This document shows, piece after piece, positions 26,095 to 44,894 of a stretch of 64,000 bases of DNA. The position numbers and the translations under genes were made by a program. The notes under the pieces are model-generated. The model saw only the letters and a list, made by a program, of their open reading frames with translations. It was not told the origin of the DNA and made no database searches. The stretch is from an uncultured Pseudomonadota bacterium (lineage in GTDB: Bacteria; Pseudomonadota; Alphaproteobacteria; Rs-D84): NCBI GenBank assembly GCA_937885575.1, contig CALABO010000008.1, positions 6,294 through 70,293 on the forward strand, given 5' to 3'. Numbering within the stretch: the stretch's first letter is position 1; the number at the start of each line of letters is the position of its first letter.

Positions 26095-27258
26095 TCAATT
26101 ATTCACACAAGTCTTAAACTCATCGGGGTCAGTTCTCATAAAACACGCCCGCATTTTCTCTTTGGTGATTTTTTGCATACGAACACACCTTTGTTCTTTT
26201 TTGTAATAAAATTCGTTTTCTCCATCACAATCTAAACAAGCACCATTTACACCTATTCCTTTTTTTTCTAATGATTTACCACTACCACACGGGACACATT
26301 TTTTGTTAGGCCATGTTTCAAATCCATAATTTTCATTTTTACAGCGAAATTGTTTGCAGCCCCCAACAGAAACCAATTTATGTTGTGTTTCATCGTATTT
26401 AGAATCATCCCATGATGTGCACCAATTTTGATTGGTTATACTCTCGGCACATTCCGGCGCCATTACACAATCATCATGGGTGCTATTTTCAGTATATCCC
26501 GGCGCGCACAACACTTTGTAAGAATCTTTTTTTGAAAATGCTTTTGTAATAGTATTTTTATTTGCACTAACTTTCGTTGGTCCAACAATAAGCGCATGAG
26601 GTTTTATCTCAATAACTGCTAATACCACCGAATAATGGTCATTTGTTGTAGAATCGCTAAAATTCCCCTCCGGAAGCTTATTTGAACGCCCCTGATAACC
26701 ATCAAGATAATCAAAAACATCTATCTCAGATGTAATCCGACCATCTTGTTCCCCACTAAGAATTCTATATTTACCATCCAAAGGATTATTTAATTCTGTT
26801 TTATAATCGATACTCAAACCGGAACAGTCATATTCATGTTTTTCACACTTAGTACCAGACCAGCCAGATTCACACACAACCTGTCGCTTATATTCGTCAC
26901 TATCAAAGAAATCAATCCATCGTGGTTGCCCTGTTCCTGACTTATTTGTCCATGCCGCTTGCATTTGTGTCATGCCGAAACACCCACCATGTTCATAGAT
27001 TTCGTGTGCAATAACCGGGATAATAGAACCTTCATCATCGCTACTTCCATATCCAAAAGTGCCGGTTTTATCATTGTAAAAACTCGTTGGAGAAATTTTT
27101 TCGCTCACCTTGGTCGGATAGGCAAAACTATTTGACCACCCCCACGCATTTTGTATTCTGTCTGCTACCACATTAGGATGTTCATATGTACGATTCTCTG
27201 CACCCATCGCACCGCCGGCCAACATTACACCGCAAATTGCAACCATGATTTTTTTCAA
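26095..27258 (-). CDS. Secreted Cys-rich hypothetical protein (P1)
   Basis: TTG start at 27258 with an AGGGAGGA RBS. Signal peptide LKKIMVAICGVMLAGGAMGA. About 24 Cys, concentrated in the C-terminal third. No family recognised. Confidence 0.6.
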   Translation of the reverse strand: MKKIMVAICGVMLAGGAMGAENRTYEHPNVVADRIQNAWGWSNSFAYPTKVSEKISPTSFYNDKTGTFGYGSSDDEGSIIPVIAHEIYEHGGCFGMTQMQAAWTNKSGTGQPRWIDFFDSDEYKRQVVCESGWSGTKCEKHEYDCSGLSIDYKTELNNPLDGKYRILSGEQDGRITSEIDVFDYLDGYQGRSNKLPEGNFSDSTTNDHYSVVLAVIEIKPHALIVGPTKVSANKNTITKAFSKKDSYKVLCAPGYTENSTHDDCVMAPECAESITNQNWCTSWDDSKYDETQHKLVSVGGCKQFRCKNENYGFETWPNKKCVPCGSGKSLEKKGIGVNGACLDCDGENEFYYKKEQRCVRMQKITKEKMRACFMRTDPDEFKTCVNN

Positions 27259-27283
27259 TGAATCCTCCCTTGGTATCAAAACA

Positions 27284-27470
27284 AAAACCACCGAATTACT
27301 TCAAGTGGTTGGAGGTTAACGACAATTTTAGCGAAATTGTGCGCTTATTTTATCGGGAATCCCCGATATTATTCACGGCCCTCCAACCACTTTCGGTTGG
27401 AGTTTTCGTCGACCGAAATCGACATCGCTAAAAAGGGTCGTTACACCCCATCGACGGAACACCCATCGAC
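27284..27470 (-). promoter_or_regulatory. Family D conserved structured 5' leader, copy 1 (candidate cis-regulatory RNA)
   Basis: Three blocks are shared with 44652..44830 in the same orientation and position relative to a secreted-protein gene. It has hairpins H1-H3 with alternative pairings. Confidence 0.45.
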
Positions 27471-27515
27471 AATTTTACTTTAATAAATTATAAAACCGAA
27501 AAGCAAGAAGAAATT

Positions 27516-27544
27516 GTTAGTGGTAAGTGTTAGTGGCTAGTGAG
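27516..27544 (+). repeat. Family B heptamer tract B2
   Basis: GTTAGTGGTAAGTGTTAGTGGCTAGTGAG. Confidence 0.85.
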
Positions 27545-27560
27545 AAATTCCAGAGTGCAA

Positions 27561-43689: not shown

Positions 43690-44625
43690 TTAATCATCTG
43701 GAAAATCCCAAAGCCAACAATAATCCGGATCATTTTCATGCCCGGTTTCATACCCGGCACAGGTGCGTTTTTTCTGGCGGGTGTCAACGGCGGCAATGGT
43801 TGCGATATTTGCGCCGTTTTCCAATTCGCCGGTTGTCGCATTATGCGTTGGCGCATTTGCGGTCGCAACCCCATTGCCCAGCGCGCCATTTGCGCCATAA
43901 TTTGCAAGTGTGTTCGGCGTGCCGGTGGGCGCGGCATTTTGAATTTCATTATGCAACGCACTATACACATCCTTTAACAGTTCCAATGAAACCAATGCAC
44001 CCTTGATATAGTTTAGACTTGTGGTTGCGTTACCACTGGTTCCACCAAAGTTTGATGTTTCATACTGTGCCAATGTTTTTGTTCCGTTGATATACAATAT
44101 AACATTATCCGCGCCGGATTTTTGGGTAAGTGGTTGCGACCCACCCGCGGTGATATAACGACGACCAACGACCCCCGAGTTCGCCCCCAAATCAATTGTT
44201 TGCCCACCGGTGGAGGCCATGAGATAGTAGATTGTTGTGCTTGTCCATGCTGCCGGAAGTTTATTTTGTTTTGCCGCTAATCCTTCTGCCACGGCACGAA
44301 CGGTTGGAACATAATTATCCATTTCGGAACCGTATGCACTACCACCATATACAGACAAATCACCCTCATCATCCGAAATTGTTTGCGCATCTAAAATACC
44401 TATCTTATTACCAACAAGTCCACTTGTAGAATCATATGTTGTAATCGCCGGCAACATAAGTTCAGGATTGCCATTAAACTCCACTAACCCGGTTGTGATT
44501 TTATCCTGTTTCGTATCGACATAGGCCTTAGATGCCACGGTTTTCTTGTCCAATTCGGTTGGTTCCGCAAATGACGGCATTGTAAACAATGTTGCAAATA
44601 CAGATAACACGATAAATTTTTTCAT
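43690..44625 (-). CDS. Secreted hypothetical protein (P2), tail-fibre/adhesin-like N-terminal motif
   Basis: ATG 44625 with an AGGGGGA RBS. Signal peptide MKKFIVLSVFATLFTMPSFA. VASKAYVDTKQDKI motif, a Gly/Asn/Thr-rich body and a C-terminal Cys-DPD-Cys loop. Confidence 0.6.
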   Translation of the reverse strand: MKKFIVLSVFATLFTMPSFAEPTELDKKTVASKAYVDTKQDKITTGLVEFNGNPELMLPAITTYDSTSGLVGNKIGILDAQTISDDEGDLSVYGGSAYGSEMDNYVPTVRAVAEGLAAKQNKLPAAWTSTTIYYLMASTGGQTIDLGANSGVVGRRYITAGGSQPLTQKSGADNVILYINGTKTLAQYETSNFGGTSGNATTSLNYIKGALVSLELLKDVYSALHNEIQNAAPTGTPNTLANYGANGALGNGVATANAPTHNATTGELENGANIATIAAVDTRQKKRTCAGYETGHENDPDYCWLWDFPDD

Positions 44626-44651
44626 ATATTTTCCCCCTTTTTTATGTAACA

Positions 44652-44830
44652 AAAAACCACCGAATTCACTTCAAGTGGTTGGAGGTTCAAGACTATGTTC
44701 CGAGAAAATAGTGGGTTTATTCTTTATATTCACCGCCCTCCAACCACCCTGGGTTGGAGGTGTTTTTTGTCCCCACGGACATCCGGAACCACGGGTCTTG
44801 ACACCCCATCGATGGAACACCCATCGATAC
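44652..44830 (-). promoter_or_regulatory. Family D conserved structured 5' leader, copy 2
   Basis: Same three blocks as 27284..27470: AAACCACCGAATT.ACTTCAAGTGGTTGGAGGTT, ATTCAC.GCCCTCCAACCAC...GGTTGGAG and ACACCCCATCGA.GGAACACCCATCGA. Confidence 0.45.
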
Positions 44831-44894
44831 AAATATTTTATCAAAACATGGGTATAAAAAACAAGCGAAAAAAGTATCGGCAACAAAAAACGGG

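What the first reader, a model, noticed from the sequence alone, without database searches (positions are those of the whole stretch)
44652..44830. Leader copy 2: strand-of-function evidence, and an alternative divergent-sRNA reading
Evidence for the minus strand: in copy 2, H1 is a perfect AUCGAUGG-GUGUU-CCAUCGAU (44808-44828). In copy 1 two positions differ. On the minus-strand RNA the pairs become G.U wobbles, whereas on the plus strand they would be A.C mismatches. This favours a structure selected in the mRNA-sense RNA, though with only two copies the evidence is thin.

Evidence for the plus strand: H2 read on the plus strand is a textbook intrinsic terminator. It reads CCTCCAACC-ACCCTG-GGTTGGAGG-TGTTTTTTGT at 44737-44770, and CTCCAACC-ACTTTC-GGTTGGAG-TTTT in copy 1. 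No plus-strand gene ends there.

An alternative is therefore a ~115-125-nt plus-strand sRNA (about 44652-44768 and 27284-27406), antisense to the 5' UTR. Its conserved 5' block GTGGTTGGAGG would compete with its own terminator arm. Either model implies a dedicated RNA-level control of these two secreted proteins.
Basis: partly seen in the sequence, partly recalled or inferred. Interest (0 to 1): 0.6.

Follow-up and report, generated by a model that had tools for sequence, protein, structure and literature searches.

The report
Gene-leader RNA switch, mRNA strand
The flagged stretch is one copy of a folded leader RNA, read on the same strand as the gene it precedes, that can form a transcription stop signal just before a secreted-protein gene. 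The proposed opposite-strand small RNA is only a mirror image of that fold.

Summary
The strand question is now settled in favour of the window's minus strand, the mRNA sense.

- **Wobble pairs:** across 119 distinct copies, the helices hold 515 G.U pairs against 94 A.C. In hairpin H1 the count is 180 against 5.
- **Promoter:** a sigma-70 promoter (TTG, 18 nt, TG-n-TAnAAT) sits at a fixed distance upstream.
- **Terminator:** a U-tailed terminator closes the element in 113 of 119 copies.
- **Downstream gene:** in 101 of 109 copies a Shine-Dalgarno site and a co-oriented start codon follow, mostly 12-40 nt later.

The plus-strand "textbook terminator" is helix P4 plus an A-rich linker read backwards. 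No promoter serves it.

The invariant GGUUGGAGG can pair with an upstream or a downstream CCUCCAACC, and the downstream copy overlaps the terminator stem. In variant relatives all four segments change together, which is the attenuator signature. The trigger is unknown.

The 3' half resembles sRNA-Xcc1 (Rfam RF02221). In a sample of Pseudomonadota, RF02221 members also lie just upstream of genes.

This scan had already found the family many times on other DNA, and on copy 1 of this window. The host is Candidatus Enterousia, a gut alphaproteobacterium with a genome of about 1 Mb.

The parts
44859..44864 (-). -35-like hexamer TTGTTT of the leader's own promoter
   Evidence: Read. The logo of 116 copies shows T/T/(T or G) conserved at -34..-32 relative to model position 1.
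44835..44843 (-). Extended -10 element TG-A-TAAAAT, 18 nt after the -35
   Evidence: The logo of 116 copies gives T A a A A T at -10..-5 and TG at -13/-12, up to 1.1 bits per position, at a fixed distance from H1. Four of the five own-genome copies I inspected show TGnTAnAAT.
44651..44830 (-). Whole leader RNA, copy 2 (model positions 1-180). The predicted transcription start is at about 44830-44827.
   Evidence: The covariance model R1 scores it at 194.9 bits, E = 6.6e-52. The start site is inferred from the promoter spacing and has not been measured.
44808..44828 (-). H1: an 8-bp hairpin with pentaloop GUGUU at the 5' end of the transcript
   Evidence: 98.4% of cells are paired against 60% in shuffles, with 363 double-change cells. 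G.U outnumbers A.C by 180 to 5, and 92 of 102 distinct stems have at least one G.U.
44801..44807 (-). Conserved single-stranded GGGGUGU. Its GGGG can pair with the CCUC of segment C (P1 extension).
   Evidence: Pairs 24-27 with 146-149 are mostly G-C, G.U, G-C, G-C; the fifth pair is weak (38 C.A).
44795..44801 (-). P1, 5' strand (UCAAGAC), which pairs with 44687-44693
   Evidence: 99.4% of cells are paired against 73.5% in shuffles, with up to four pair types per position. The copy 2 versus copy 1 compensation is CAAGAC/GUCUUG versus AACGAC/GUCGUU.
44784..44789 (-). P2, 5' strand (GUUCCG), which pairs with CGGAAC at 44697-44702
   Evidence: MFE folds. In the family all 8 P2 pairs show double changes and 92.6% of cells are paired.
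44768..44781 (-). P3, a small hairpin
   Evidence: All five pairs show double changes.
44761..44769 (-). A-rich linker before P4. Read on the plus strand it is the 'T tract' of the look-alike terminator.
   Evidence: At least 5 A in 8 nt just 5' of P4 in 86 of 116 copies. The tract is often separated from the stem by 1-4 other bases.
44737..44760 (-). P4: segment A (CCUCCAACC, 44752-44760) paired with segment B (GGUUGGAGG, 44737-44745).
   Evidence: Segment A varies only by transitions that keep G.U with B: 78 G.U against 3 A.C.
44714..44734 (-). P5, a short helix closing a conserved GAAUA...AAUAA loop. It is shared with the first hairpin of sRNA-Xcc1.
   Evidence: 98.9% of cells are paired against 71.7% in shuffles.
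44692..44712 (-). P6, an alternative local hairpin (ACUAU/AUAGU) of the sRNA-Xcc1-like fold. It competes with P2 and with the end of P1.
   Evidence: 82.2% of cells are paired against 76.8% in shuffles (maximum 79.7%). One position is U-A in 81 copies and A-U in 21. Support is modest.
44687..44693 (-). P1, 3' strand (GUCUUGA)
   Evidence: See the P1 5' strand.
44677..44685 (-). Segment C (CCUCCAACC), the second partner of B. Its last four bases are also the start of the terminator stem.
   Evidence: B:C is Watson-Crick in about 98% of cells. In variant loci B, C and the terminator's 3' arm change together.
44651..44680 (-). Intrinsic terminator: stem AACCACU/GGUGGUU with an inner mini-hairpin, then UUUUUU (44651-44656)
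   Evidence: A U run of at least 4 is present in 113 of 119 copies, and the positions are strongly conserved. The hairpin folds at -8.7 kcal/mol.
44633..44637 (-). Shine-Dalgarno GGGGG of the downstream gene
   Evidence: Read. An SD-preceded start follows 101 of 109 copies.
43690..44625 (-). Controlled gene: a 311-aa protein with a signal peptide and no Pfam family
   Evidence: The ATG lies 25 nt after the U run.
27282..27472 (-). Sister copy 1 of the leader, upstream of the 387-aa secreted Cys-rich protein gene at 26095-27258
   Evidence: R1 scores it at 173.8 bits. The start codon lies 23 nt after the U run.

Best explanation
The region 44651-44830 is transcribed on the window's minus strand as the 5' leader of the secreted-protein gene at 43690-44625. 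Transcription starts from the leader's own sigma-70-type promoter (TTGTTT, 18 nt, TG-A-TAAAAT), a few bases before hairpin H1.

The RNA folds into H1 plus a multi-helix junction (P1, P2, P3, P4, P5). It ends in an intrinsic terminator 25 nt before the start codon.

The invariant segment B (GGUUGGAGG) has two possible partners.
- Segment A lies upstream. A:B is helix P4.
- Segment C lies downstream, and its last bases are also the 5' arm of the terminator.

When A:B forms, C is free to build the terminator and transcription stops. This is the default state, favoured by about 10 kcal/mol. When B:C forms (the sRNA-Xcc1-like three-way junction), the terminator cannot form and the gene is transcribed.

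What is shown: the strand, the promoter, the structure, the terminator, the position in front of genes, and the joint evolution of the four segments. What is inferred: that the alternative pairing is used as a switch. The signal that flips it is unknown. It is unlikely to be c-di-GMP, (p)ppGpp or c-di-AMP made by the cell, because the corresponding synthase domains were not found in this 94%-complete genome.

The plus-strand 'terminator' and 'sRNA' are the same palindromic helices read from the wrong strand.
For: **Strand**
- G.U against A.C cells in 119 distinct copies are 180 to 5 in H1, 78 to 3 in P4, and 515 to 94 over all helices.
- 92 of 102 distinct H1 stems have a G.U and 5 have an A.C.
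- Orthologues of copy 2 in other genomes carry an A-to-G change in H1 that gives G.U on this strand.

**Promoter**
- The logo of 116 copies shows TG-n-TAnAAT and TTG at a fixed distance upstream.
- Nothing comparable appears on the other side.

**Terminator**
- A U run of at least 4 follows the terminator in 113 of 119 copies.

**Leader position**
- An SD plus a co-oriented ORF start follows 101 of 109 copies, mostly 12-40 nt after the U run. By a crude pattern test at least 57 of the 101 N-termini look like signal peptides.

**Structure**
- 94.6% of cells are paired, 40 of 55 pairs have double changes, and sliding the partners gives at most 46%.

**Switch**
- Segment A varies only through wobble-preserving transitions, while B and C stay fixed.
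- In variant loci A, B, C and the terminator's 3' arm change together, for example GGUCGGGGG / CCCCCGACC / GACCGCC...GGCGGU and AGCUGGAGG / CCUCCAGUU / ...GCGAACUG.
- The terminator reuses the last 3-5 nt of C in 16 of 20 such loci.

**Energies for copy 2**
- The terminator fold is -69.2 kcal/mol; forcing B:C gives -59.1 kcal/mol.

**Homology**
- RF02221 (sRNA-Xcc1) aligns to the stretch from B to C of some copies, on the same strand.
- The Xanthomonas RNA was detected by Northern blot and its ends were mapped (PMC2996969).
Against: - There are no transcript data for this organism. The start site, the termination and the read-through are all inferred.
- B and C are nearly invariant inside the main family, so B:C has no covariation there. 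Part of that invariance is ascertainment, because 80 of the loci were fetched with a pattern that required both motifs. The support for B:C comes from variant loci and from the Rfam consensus.
- The alternative hairpin P6 is only modestly supported (82% paired against 77% in shuffles).
- The terminator fold is about 10 kcal/mol more stable, and P4 is transcribed long before C. A switch therefore needs a factor that has not been identified.
- RF02221 does not reach its threshold on copy 2 or anywhere in this genome.
- Covariance-model alignments lean slightly towards G.U over A.C.
Confidence: 0.8

Rival explanations
1. A plus-strand sRNA of about 115-125 nt (about 44652-44768), antisense to the 5' UTR, ends at the P4 hairpin plus T tract and controls the gene by antisense pairing.
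For: - The plus-strand hairpin plus T tract passes a simple terminator rule in both window copies.
- By the same rule it passes in 86 of 116 family copies.
- The helices are palindromic, so the plus strand also folds well (z = -5.1).
Against: - On the plus strand the 515 G.U cells become A.C mismatches. H1 would drop from 98% to about 80% paired.
- 41 of 116 copies would have A.C mismatches inside the supposed terminator stem.
- There is no conserved promoter-like signal where the sRNA's promoter should lie; every position there is below 0.4 bit.
- The T tract is often 1-4 nt away from the stem.
- The element keeps a fixed orientation and distance to the downstream gene, which an independent sRNA gene would not need.
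- The related RF02221 model matches the minus sense only.
Confidence: 0.03
2. There is no conditional switch. The leader is a constitutive module: a 5' hairpin that stabilises the RNA, plus a leaky terminator. It sets a low fixed read-through level, and it releases a stable minus-strand RNA of about 180 nt that acts in trans, as sRNA-Xcc1 is said to do.
For: - The terminator fold is the minimum-energy fold by about 10 kcal/mol.
- sRNA-Xcc1 was seen as a discrete 88-nt RNA (PMC2996969), and seven homologues are expressed in Xylella (PMC12189769).
- The segments A, B and C are shared by all copies, so terminated leaders could pair with one another or titrate a common factor.
- No trigger has been identified.
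Against: - The joint change of A, B, C and the terminator arm in variant loci is hard to explain unless both A:B and B:C pairings are used.
- Hfq was not found in this genome.
- Nearly every copy is tied to a gene start at 12-40 nt, which a trans-acting RNA gene would not need.
Confidence: 0.12
3. The element works at the DNA level. It would be a mobile promoter cassette, or a folded single-strand recombination site comparable to integron attC sites, and the strand asymmetry would reflect G.T pairs in folded single-stranded DNA.
For: - The element is present in many copies in front of unrelated genes.
- sRNA-Xcc1 relatives travel in integron cassettes (bioRxiv 10.1101/2025.06.18.660453).
- Heptamer repeat tracts flank several cassettes (and earlier notes).
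Against: - The promoter at a fixed distance, the U-tailed terminator and the SD plus start codon all point to RNA-level function.
- The helices differ completely in sequence between copies but keep their pairing. This indicates old divergence under structural selection rather than recent transposition.
- I did not search this genome for an integron integrase, so that part is untested.
Confidence: 0.03

Closest known systems
sRNA-Xcc1 (Rfam RF02221), an 88-nt RNA of Xanthomonas campestris, found in integron cassettes and in several copies in Xylella
   Same: - The 3' half of the leader, from segment B to segment C, has the same three-way junction. This is a 9-bp closing helix, a first hairpin with AAUA...AAUAA loop motifs, a second hairpin and a U-rich linker.
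- RF02221 aligns to it on the same strand in relatives, at 30-58 bits. It hits 22 of 61 related genomes and none of 14 control genomes.
- Like the leader, sampled RF02221 members lie just upstream of co-oriented genes: 27 of 30 loci.
- In Xanthomonas it lies upstream of symE (bioRxiv 10.1101/2025.06.18.660453).
   Different: - Copy 2 itself does not match RF02221 even at E = 10, and no leader copy in this genome does.
- The Enterousia leader carries an extra 5' domain of about 85 nt (H1, P1, P2, P3, segment A) that offers competing partners.
- It also has a dedicated terminator that overlaps C.
- Its promoter lies before H1, not before B.
- sRNA-Xcc1 is described in print as a trans-acting sRNA, not as a leader.
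Riboswitches and attenuators with terminator / antiterminator / anti-antiterminator platforms, for example the pbuE adenine ON-switch or the multi-copy c-di-GMP-I regulons
   Same: - It has a structured 5' UTR with covarying helices and conserved junction bases.
- The 3' strand of a closing helix overlaps the terminator stem.
- There are many copies per genome, in front of surface-protein genes.
   Different: - No ligand is known.
- No GGDEF, RelA/SpoT or DAC domain was found in the genome.
- There is no match to any Rfam riboswitch.
- The conserved sensor-like module lies on the 3' side and the competitor on the 5' side.
Leader-peptide attenuators (trp type) and T-box leaders
   Same: They share the logic of four segments pairing 1:2, 2:3 and 3:4 ahead of a gene.
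   Different: - The short ORF that begins at the GUG after segment B is not conserved. It is 20 codons in copy 2 and 8 in copy 1, and the GUG is absent in the C5 copy.
- There is no T-box or any other Rfam match.
Cis-encoded antisense sRNAs of 5' UTRs (for example SymR against symE)
   Different: There is no conserved promoter on the plus strand, and the base-pair substitutions do not fit plus-strand folding.

Membership tests
sRNA-Xcc1 (Rfam RF02221) | Score at or above the Rfam gathering threshold (53 bits) | tested here: not met
   Copy 2 gives no RF02221 match at E up to 10. No leader copy in the own genome matches; the only hit there is an unrelated 23.9-bit one. Relatives' copies score 30-51 bits and one locus reaches 57.8 bits.
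sRNA-Xcc1 (Rfam RF02221) | Three-way junction made of a 9-bp closing helix and two internal hairpins | tested here: met
   B:C is 98.5% paired, P5 is 98.9% paired with covariation, and P6 is 82% paired with modest support.
sRNA-Xcc1 (Rfam RF02221) | Independent RNA of about 88 nt that begins at the closing helix | tested here: not met
   The conserved promoter lies about 85 nt upstream of B, just before H1. Transcript ends have not been measured.
Terminator-type riboswitch or attenuator (by function) | Conserved structured leader between its own promoter and the gene | tested here: met
Terminator-type riboswitch or attenuator (by function) | Intrinsic terminator whose stem shares bases with an alternative helix | tested here: met
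   The last 4 nt of C are the first 4 nt of the terminator stem. The same overlap appears with different sequences in 16 of 20 variant loci.
Terminator-type riboswitch or attenuator (by function) | A defined ligand or factor that shifts the equilibrium | not testable with these tools
   Only negative constraints were obtained. GGDEF, RelA_SpoT, DAC, Hfq and CAT_RBD were not found, and there is a single NusG. The ANTAR test was uninformative.
Leader-peptide attenuator | Conserved short ORF whose translation governs the pairing | tested here: not met
   The candidate GUG ORF differs in length between copies and is absent in one.
Cis-antisense sRNA on the plus strand | Own promoter and terminator on the plus strand, and structure conserved in that sense | tested here: not met
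   There is no promoter signal. A.C mismatches would replace the 515 G.U pairs. Only a terminator look-alike exists.

The most novel reading that the evidence does not exclude
The whole sRNA-Xcc1 family (RF02221), catalogued as a trans-acting small RNA, may really be a widespread cis-acting leader switch. It would act as an orphan riboswitch-like ON switch whose closing helix competes with a terminator or a ribosome-binding-site hairpin. In Proteobacteria it would control phage antirepressor, Rha, toxin and immunity genes. In Enterousia an enlarged version would control seven to more than twenty secreted-protein and small regulator genes per genome of about 0.9 Mb. The signal it answers to would not be one of the usual self-made second messengers.
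Probability: 0.4. Interest if true: 0.8.

Novelty: new variant of a known kind. Interest (0 to 1): 0.55.

Why it matters
For this finding, the practical result is that the strand is settled. Any probe, reporter or annotation should treat 44651-44830 as a minus-strand 5' leader, not as an antisense sRNA gene.

More broadly, these gut bacteria have genomes of about 0.9 Mb, and some place at least 26 genes behind one kind of RNA switch. Most of those genes encode secreted or surface proteins of unknown function. That points to a single master signal for their cell-surface repertoire.

The link to sRNA-Xcc1 suggests that a known "sRNA" family found in integrons, prophages and plant pathogens may be a cis-regulatory element whose signal is still unknown. 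That idea is directly testable by in-vitro transcription and ligand screening.

Tried and rejected
- **Rfam.** No family reaches its threshold in the window. A lenient scan of copy 2 gives only noise.
- **Leader peptide.** The GUG ORF after segment B is not conserved.
- **Pseudoknot between the H1 loop and the A-rich linker.** GUGUU with AACAC looked good in copy 2. Across 114 copies, within-copy complementarity (mean 3.75) equals that of shuffled partners (3.78), so I rejected it.
- **Consensus promoter scan.** It finds nothing on either strand at copy 2. It also misses the real promoter, which matches 8 of 12 positions. The simple terminator scan misses the real terminator because its loop is too long.
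- **Candidate signals and factors in the own genome (94% complete).** GGDEF, RelA_SpoT, DAC, Hfq and CAT_RBD were not found, and there is a single NusG and one cold-shock-domain (CSD) protein. The ANTAR search rang in no control genome and is uninformative.
- **Pfam on proteins downstream of own-genome leader copies.** No family was found.
- **R1 against the best RF02221 loci of relatives.** Most are not detected, so those loci form a separate, shorter subfamily.
- **Chen et al. 2011 (PMC3256417).** The paper is not held, so I could not read its evidence for trans action.

Full report
**Observation**

- On the minus strand, copy 2 has the perfect hairpin AUCGAUGG-GUGUU-CCAUCGAU at 44808-44828.
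- Copy 1 differs at two stem positions. Both become G.U on the minus-strand RNA and would be A.C on the plus strand.
- On the plus strand, the P4 helix followed by a T tract looks like an intrinsic terminator in both copies. The simple scan calls both.
- No plus-strand gene ends there.

**The element is one member of a large family**

- BLAST of copy 2 against the window's own genome (964 kb, 29 contigs, 94% complete) found five copies.
- A covariance model built from those five copies (R1) found seven copies.
- The same model hit 69 of 101 related genomes and 56 of 60 genomes of the same genus.
- Record titles name the host as Candidatus Enterousia, a gut alphaproteobacterium. Its order, Rs-D84, is known for reduced genomes (PMC12306168).
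- I aligned 119 distinct copies (alignments A3 and A4).
- On the 38 copies chosen by model score alone, 94.6% of cells are paired and 40 of 55 pairs show changes on both sides. There are 459 double-change cells against 133 in shuffles, and sliding the partners gives at most 46% pairing. The structure is real.

**Strand of function**

| Helices | G.U cells | A.C cells | Source |
|---|---|---|---|
| H1 | 180 | 5 | |
| P4 | 78 | 3 | |
| H1, P1-P5 together | 382 | 25 | |
| All helices | 515 | 94 | |

- Of 102 distinct H1 stems, 92 contain a G.U and 5 contain an A.C.
- Read on the plus strand, H1 would fall from 98% to about 80% paired.
- Near-identical orthologues of copy 2 in other genomes carry an A-to-G change that gives a G.U in H1.

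Three further signals agree with the minus strand.
1. A logo of the 60 nt upstream of 116 copies shows a sigma-70 promoter at a fixed distance. TG-n-TAnAAT lies at -13 to -5 and TTG at -34 to -32. In copy 2 these are TTGTTT (44859-44864) and TG-A-TAAAAT (44835-44843).
2. The element ends in a hairpin followed by a U run of at least 4 in 113 of 119 copies.
3. An SD-preceded start codon of a co-oriented ORF follows 101 of 109 copies, mostly 12-40 nt after the U run. Most of these proteins begin with a signal peptide.

On the far side, where a plus-strand sRNA would need its promoter, no position exceeds 0.4 bit.

**The plus-strand terminator explained**

It is helix P4 plus the A-rich linker that precedes it in the RNA, read backwards. 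The linker is fairly conserved, so the look-alike recurs in 86 of 116 copies. In 41 of 116 copies, however, P4 contains G.U pairs that would be A.C on the plus strand. The T tract is also often separated from the stem by 1-4 bases. I therefore reject the antisense sRNA reading.

**Anatomy of copy 2 (RNA sense)**

In order: promoter; H1; GGGGUGU; P1 (covaries); P2 (covaries, with entirely different sequences between copies); P3; A-rich linker; P4, formed by segment A (CCUCCAACC) with segment B (GGUUGGAGG); P5; the return strands of P2 and P1; segment C (CCUCCAACC); the terminator, whose 5' arm begins with the last four bases of C; UUUUUU; SD; ATG.

**Mechanism**

B can pair with A or with C, and C can pair with B or with the terminator's 3' arm.
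- Inside the main family, A varies only by transitions that keep a wobble with B, while B and C stay fixed. Part of the B and C invariance is ascertainment, because 80 loci were fetched with a pattern containing both motifs.
- The decisive evidence comes from variant loci. Where B differs (GGUCGGGAU, GGUCGGGGG, AGCUGGAGG, GCCGGGGUG and others), A, C and the terminator's 3' arm differ in step.
- In 16 of 20 such loci the terminator still reuses the last 3-5 bases of C and is followed by a U run. This is the classical 1:2, 2:3, 3:4 attenuator signature.
- For copy 2 the terminator fold is -69.2 kcal/mol and the best nested fold with B:C forced is -59.1 kcal/mol. The default state is therefore probably OFF, and some factor must favour B:C.

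I could not identify that factor.
- GGDEF, RelA/SpoT, DAC, Hfq and CAT_RBD domains were not found in this genome.
- There is only one NusG.
- A candidate pseudoknot between the H1 loop and the linker showed no covariation.
- A leader peptide is not conserved.

**Relation to known RNAs**

No Rfam family reaches threshold. Following a lead in earlier notes of this scan, I tested sRNA-Xcc1 (RF02221).
- It aligns to the stretch from B to C of some relatives' copies, on the same strand. The best match is 43.7 bits at E = 2e-4.
- It hits 22 of 61 related genomes, one above the 53-bit cut-off, and none of 14 control genomes.
- It does not hit copy 2 or any leader copy in this genome.
- The Rfam consensus is a three-way junction closed by the helix that corresponds to B:C.

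sRNA-Xcc1 was found as an 88-nt RNA by Northern blot with mapped ends (PMC2996969). It occurs in seven copies in Xylella (PMC12189769). In the most widespread Xanthomonas integron cassette it lies upstream of symE (bioRxiv 10.1101/2025.06.18.660453).

In a sample of 151 Pseudomonadota genomes, RF02221 matched in 31, and in 24 of those above the cut-off. In 27 of 30 fetched loci an SD-preceded, co-oriented ORF starts 14-162 nt downstream, usually 22-66 nt. Those ORFs include Bro-N/P22 antirepressors, Rha regulators and a Rap1a immunity protein. So the "sRNA" family is generally placed like a leader. A full-text search for sRNA-Xcc1 together with "riboswitch" returned eight papers. In those I read, I saw no proposal that sRNA-Xcc1 acts as a leader, although the integron preprint notes its position upstream of symE.

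**Verdict**

The minus-strand leader reading is supported and the plus-strand sRNA reading is rejected.

The element is a new, enlarged variant of a known kind: an attenuator or riboswitch-like terminator switch related to sRNA-Xcc1. This scan had already reported the family many times on other DNA, and on copy 1 of this window.

This report adds three things:
- the quantitative strand test;
- the explanation of the terminator look-alike;
- the four-segment covariation in variant loci, together with the leader-like placement of RF02221 across Pseudomonadota.

Noticed in passing
L030:1501-2089 (minus strand; genome G060, contig C8): Three leader copies lie in tandem on one strand (139, 110 and 82 bits) ahead of a single 78-aa ORF. 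The arrangement resembles tandem riboswitches, which sharpen a response.
   Followed up: no
L198, L201, L208, L209, L213, L214, L219 (RF02221 loci of other Pseudomonadota): In the RF02221 subgroup whose closing helix is GGCCGGGUG, the sequence after the helix has no U-tailed terminator. Instead it forms a small hairpin of the type CUCC-CCGAAA-GGAG that would hide the Shine-Dalgarno site. This suggests a translational version of the same switch.
   Followed up: partly
L200, L203, L206, L211, L212, L222: Genes directly downstream of bona fide RF02221 elements encode phage antirepressors (Bro-N plus P22_AR_C), Rha regulators and a Rap1a immunity protein. The family therefore sits mainly in prophage and mobile-element genes.
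   Followed up: partly
window 27517-27545, and downstream of the C5 and C28 leader copies (L020, L022): GTTAGTG-type heptamer tracts and other repeat modules are inserted between the leader's terminator and the gene start in some copies. This stretches the spacer from about 25 nt to 70-120 nt. Other findings on this window have already noted these repeats.
   Followed up: no
own genome G000 (whole): No GGDEF, RelA/SpoT, DAC (c-di-AMP synthase), Hfq or CAT_RBD domain was detected in this 94%-complete 0.96-Mb genome. There is a single NusG and a single cold-shock-domain protein.
   Followed up: partly
L025:1969-2042: A tRNA gene follows directly after the 75-aa ORF that is controlled by the leader copy on contig C15.
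   Followed up: no
L172-L176 (relatives' best RF02221 hits): Enterousia genomes also carry shorter RF02221-type leaders that the R1 model does not detect. They have their own promoters and different 5' domains. The genus therefore holds at least two subfamilies of the switch.
   Followed up: partly
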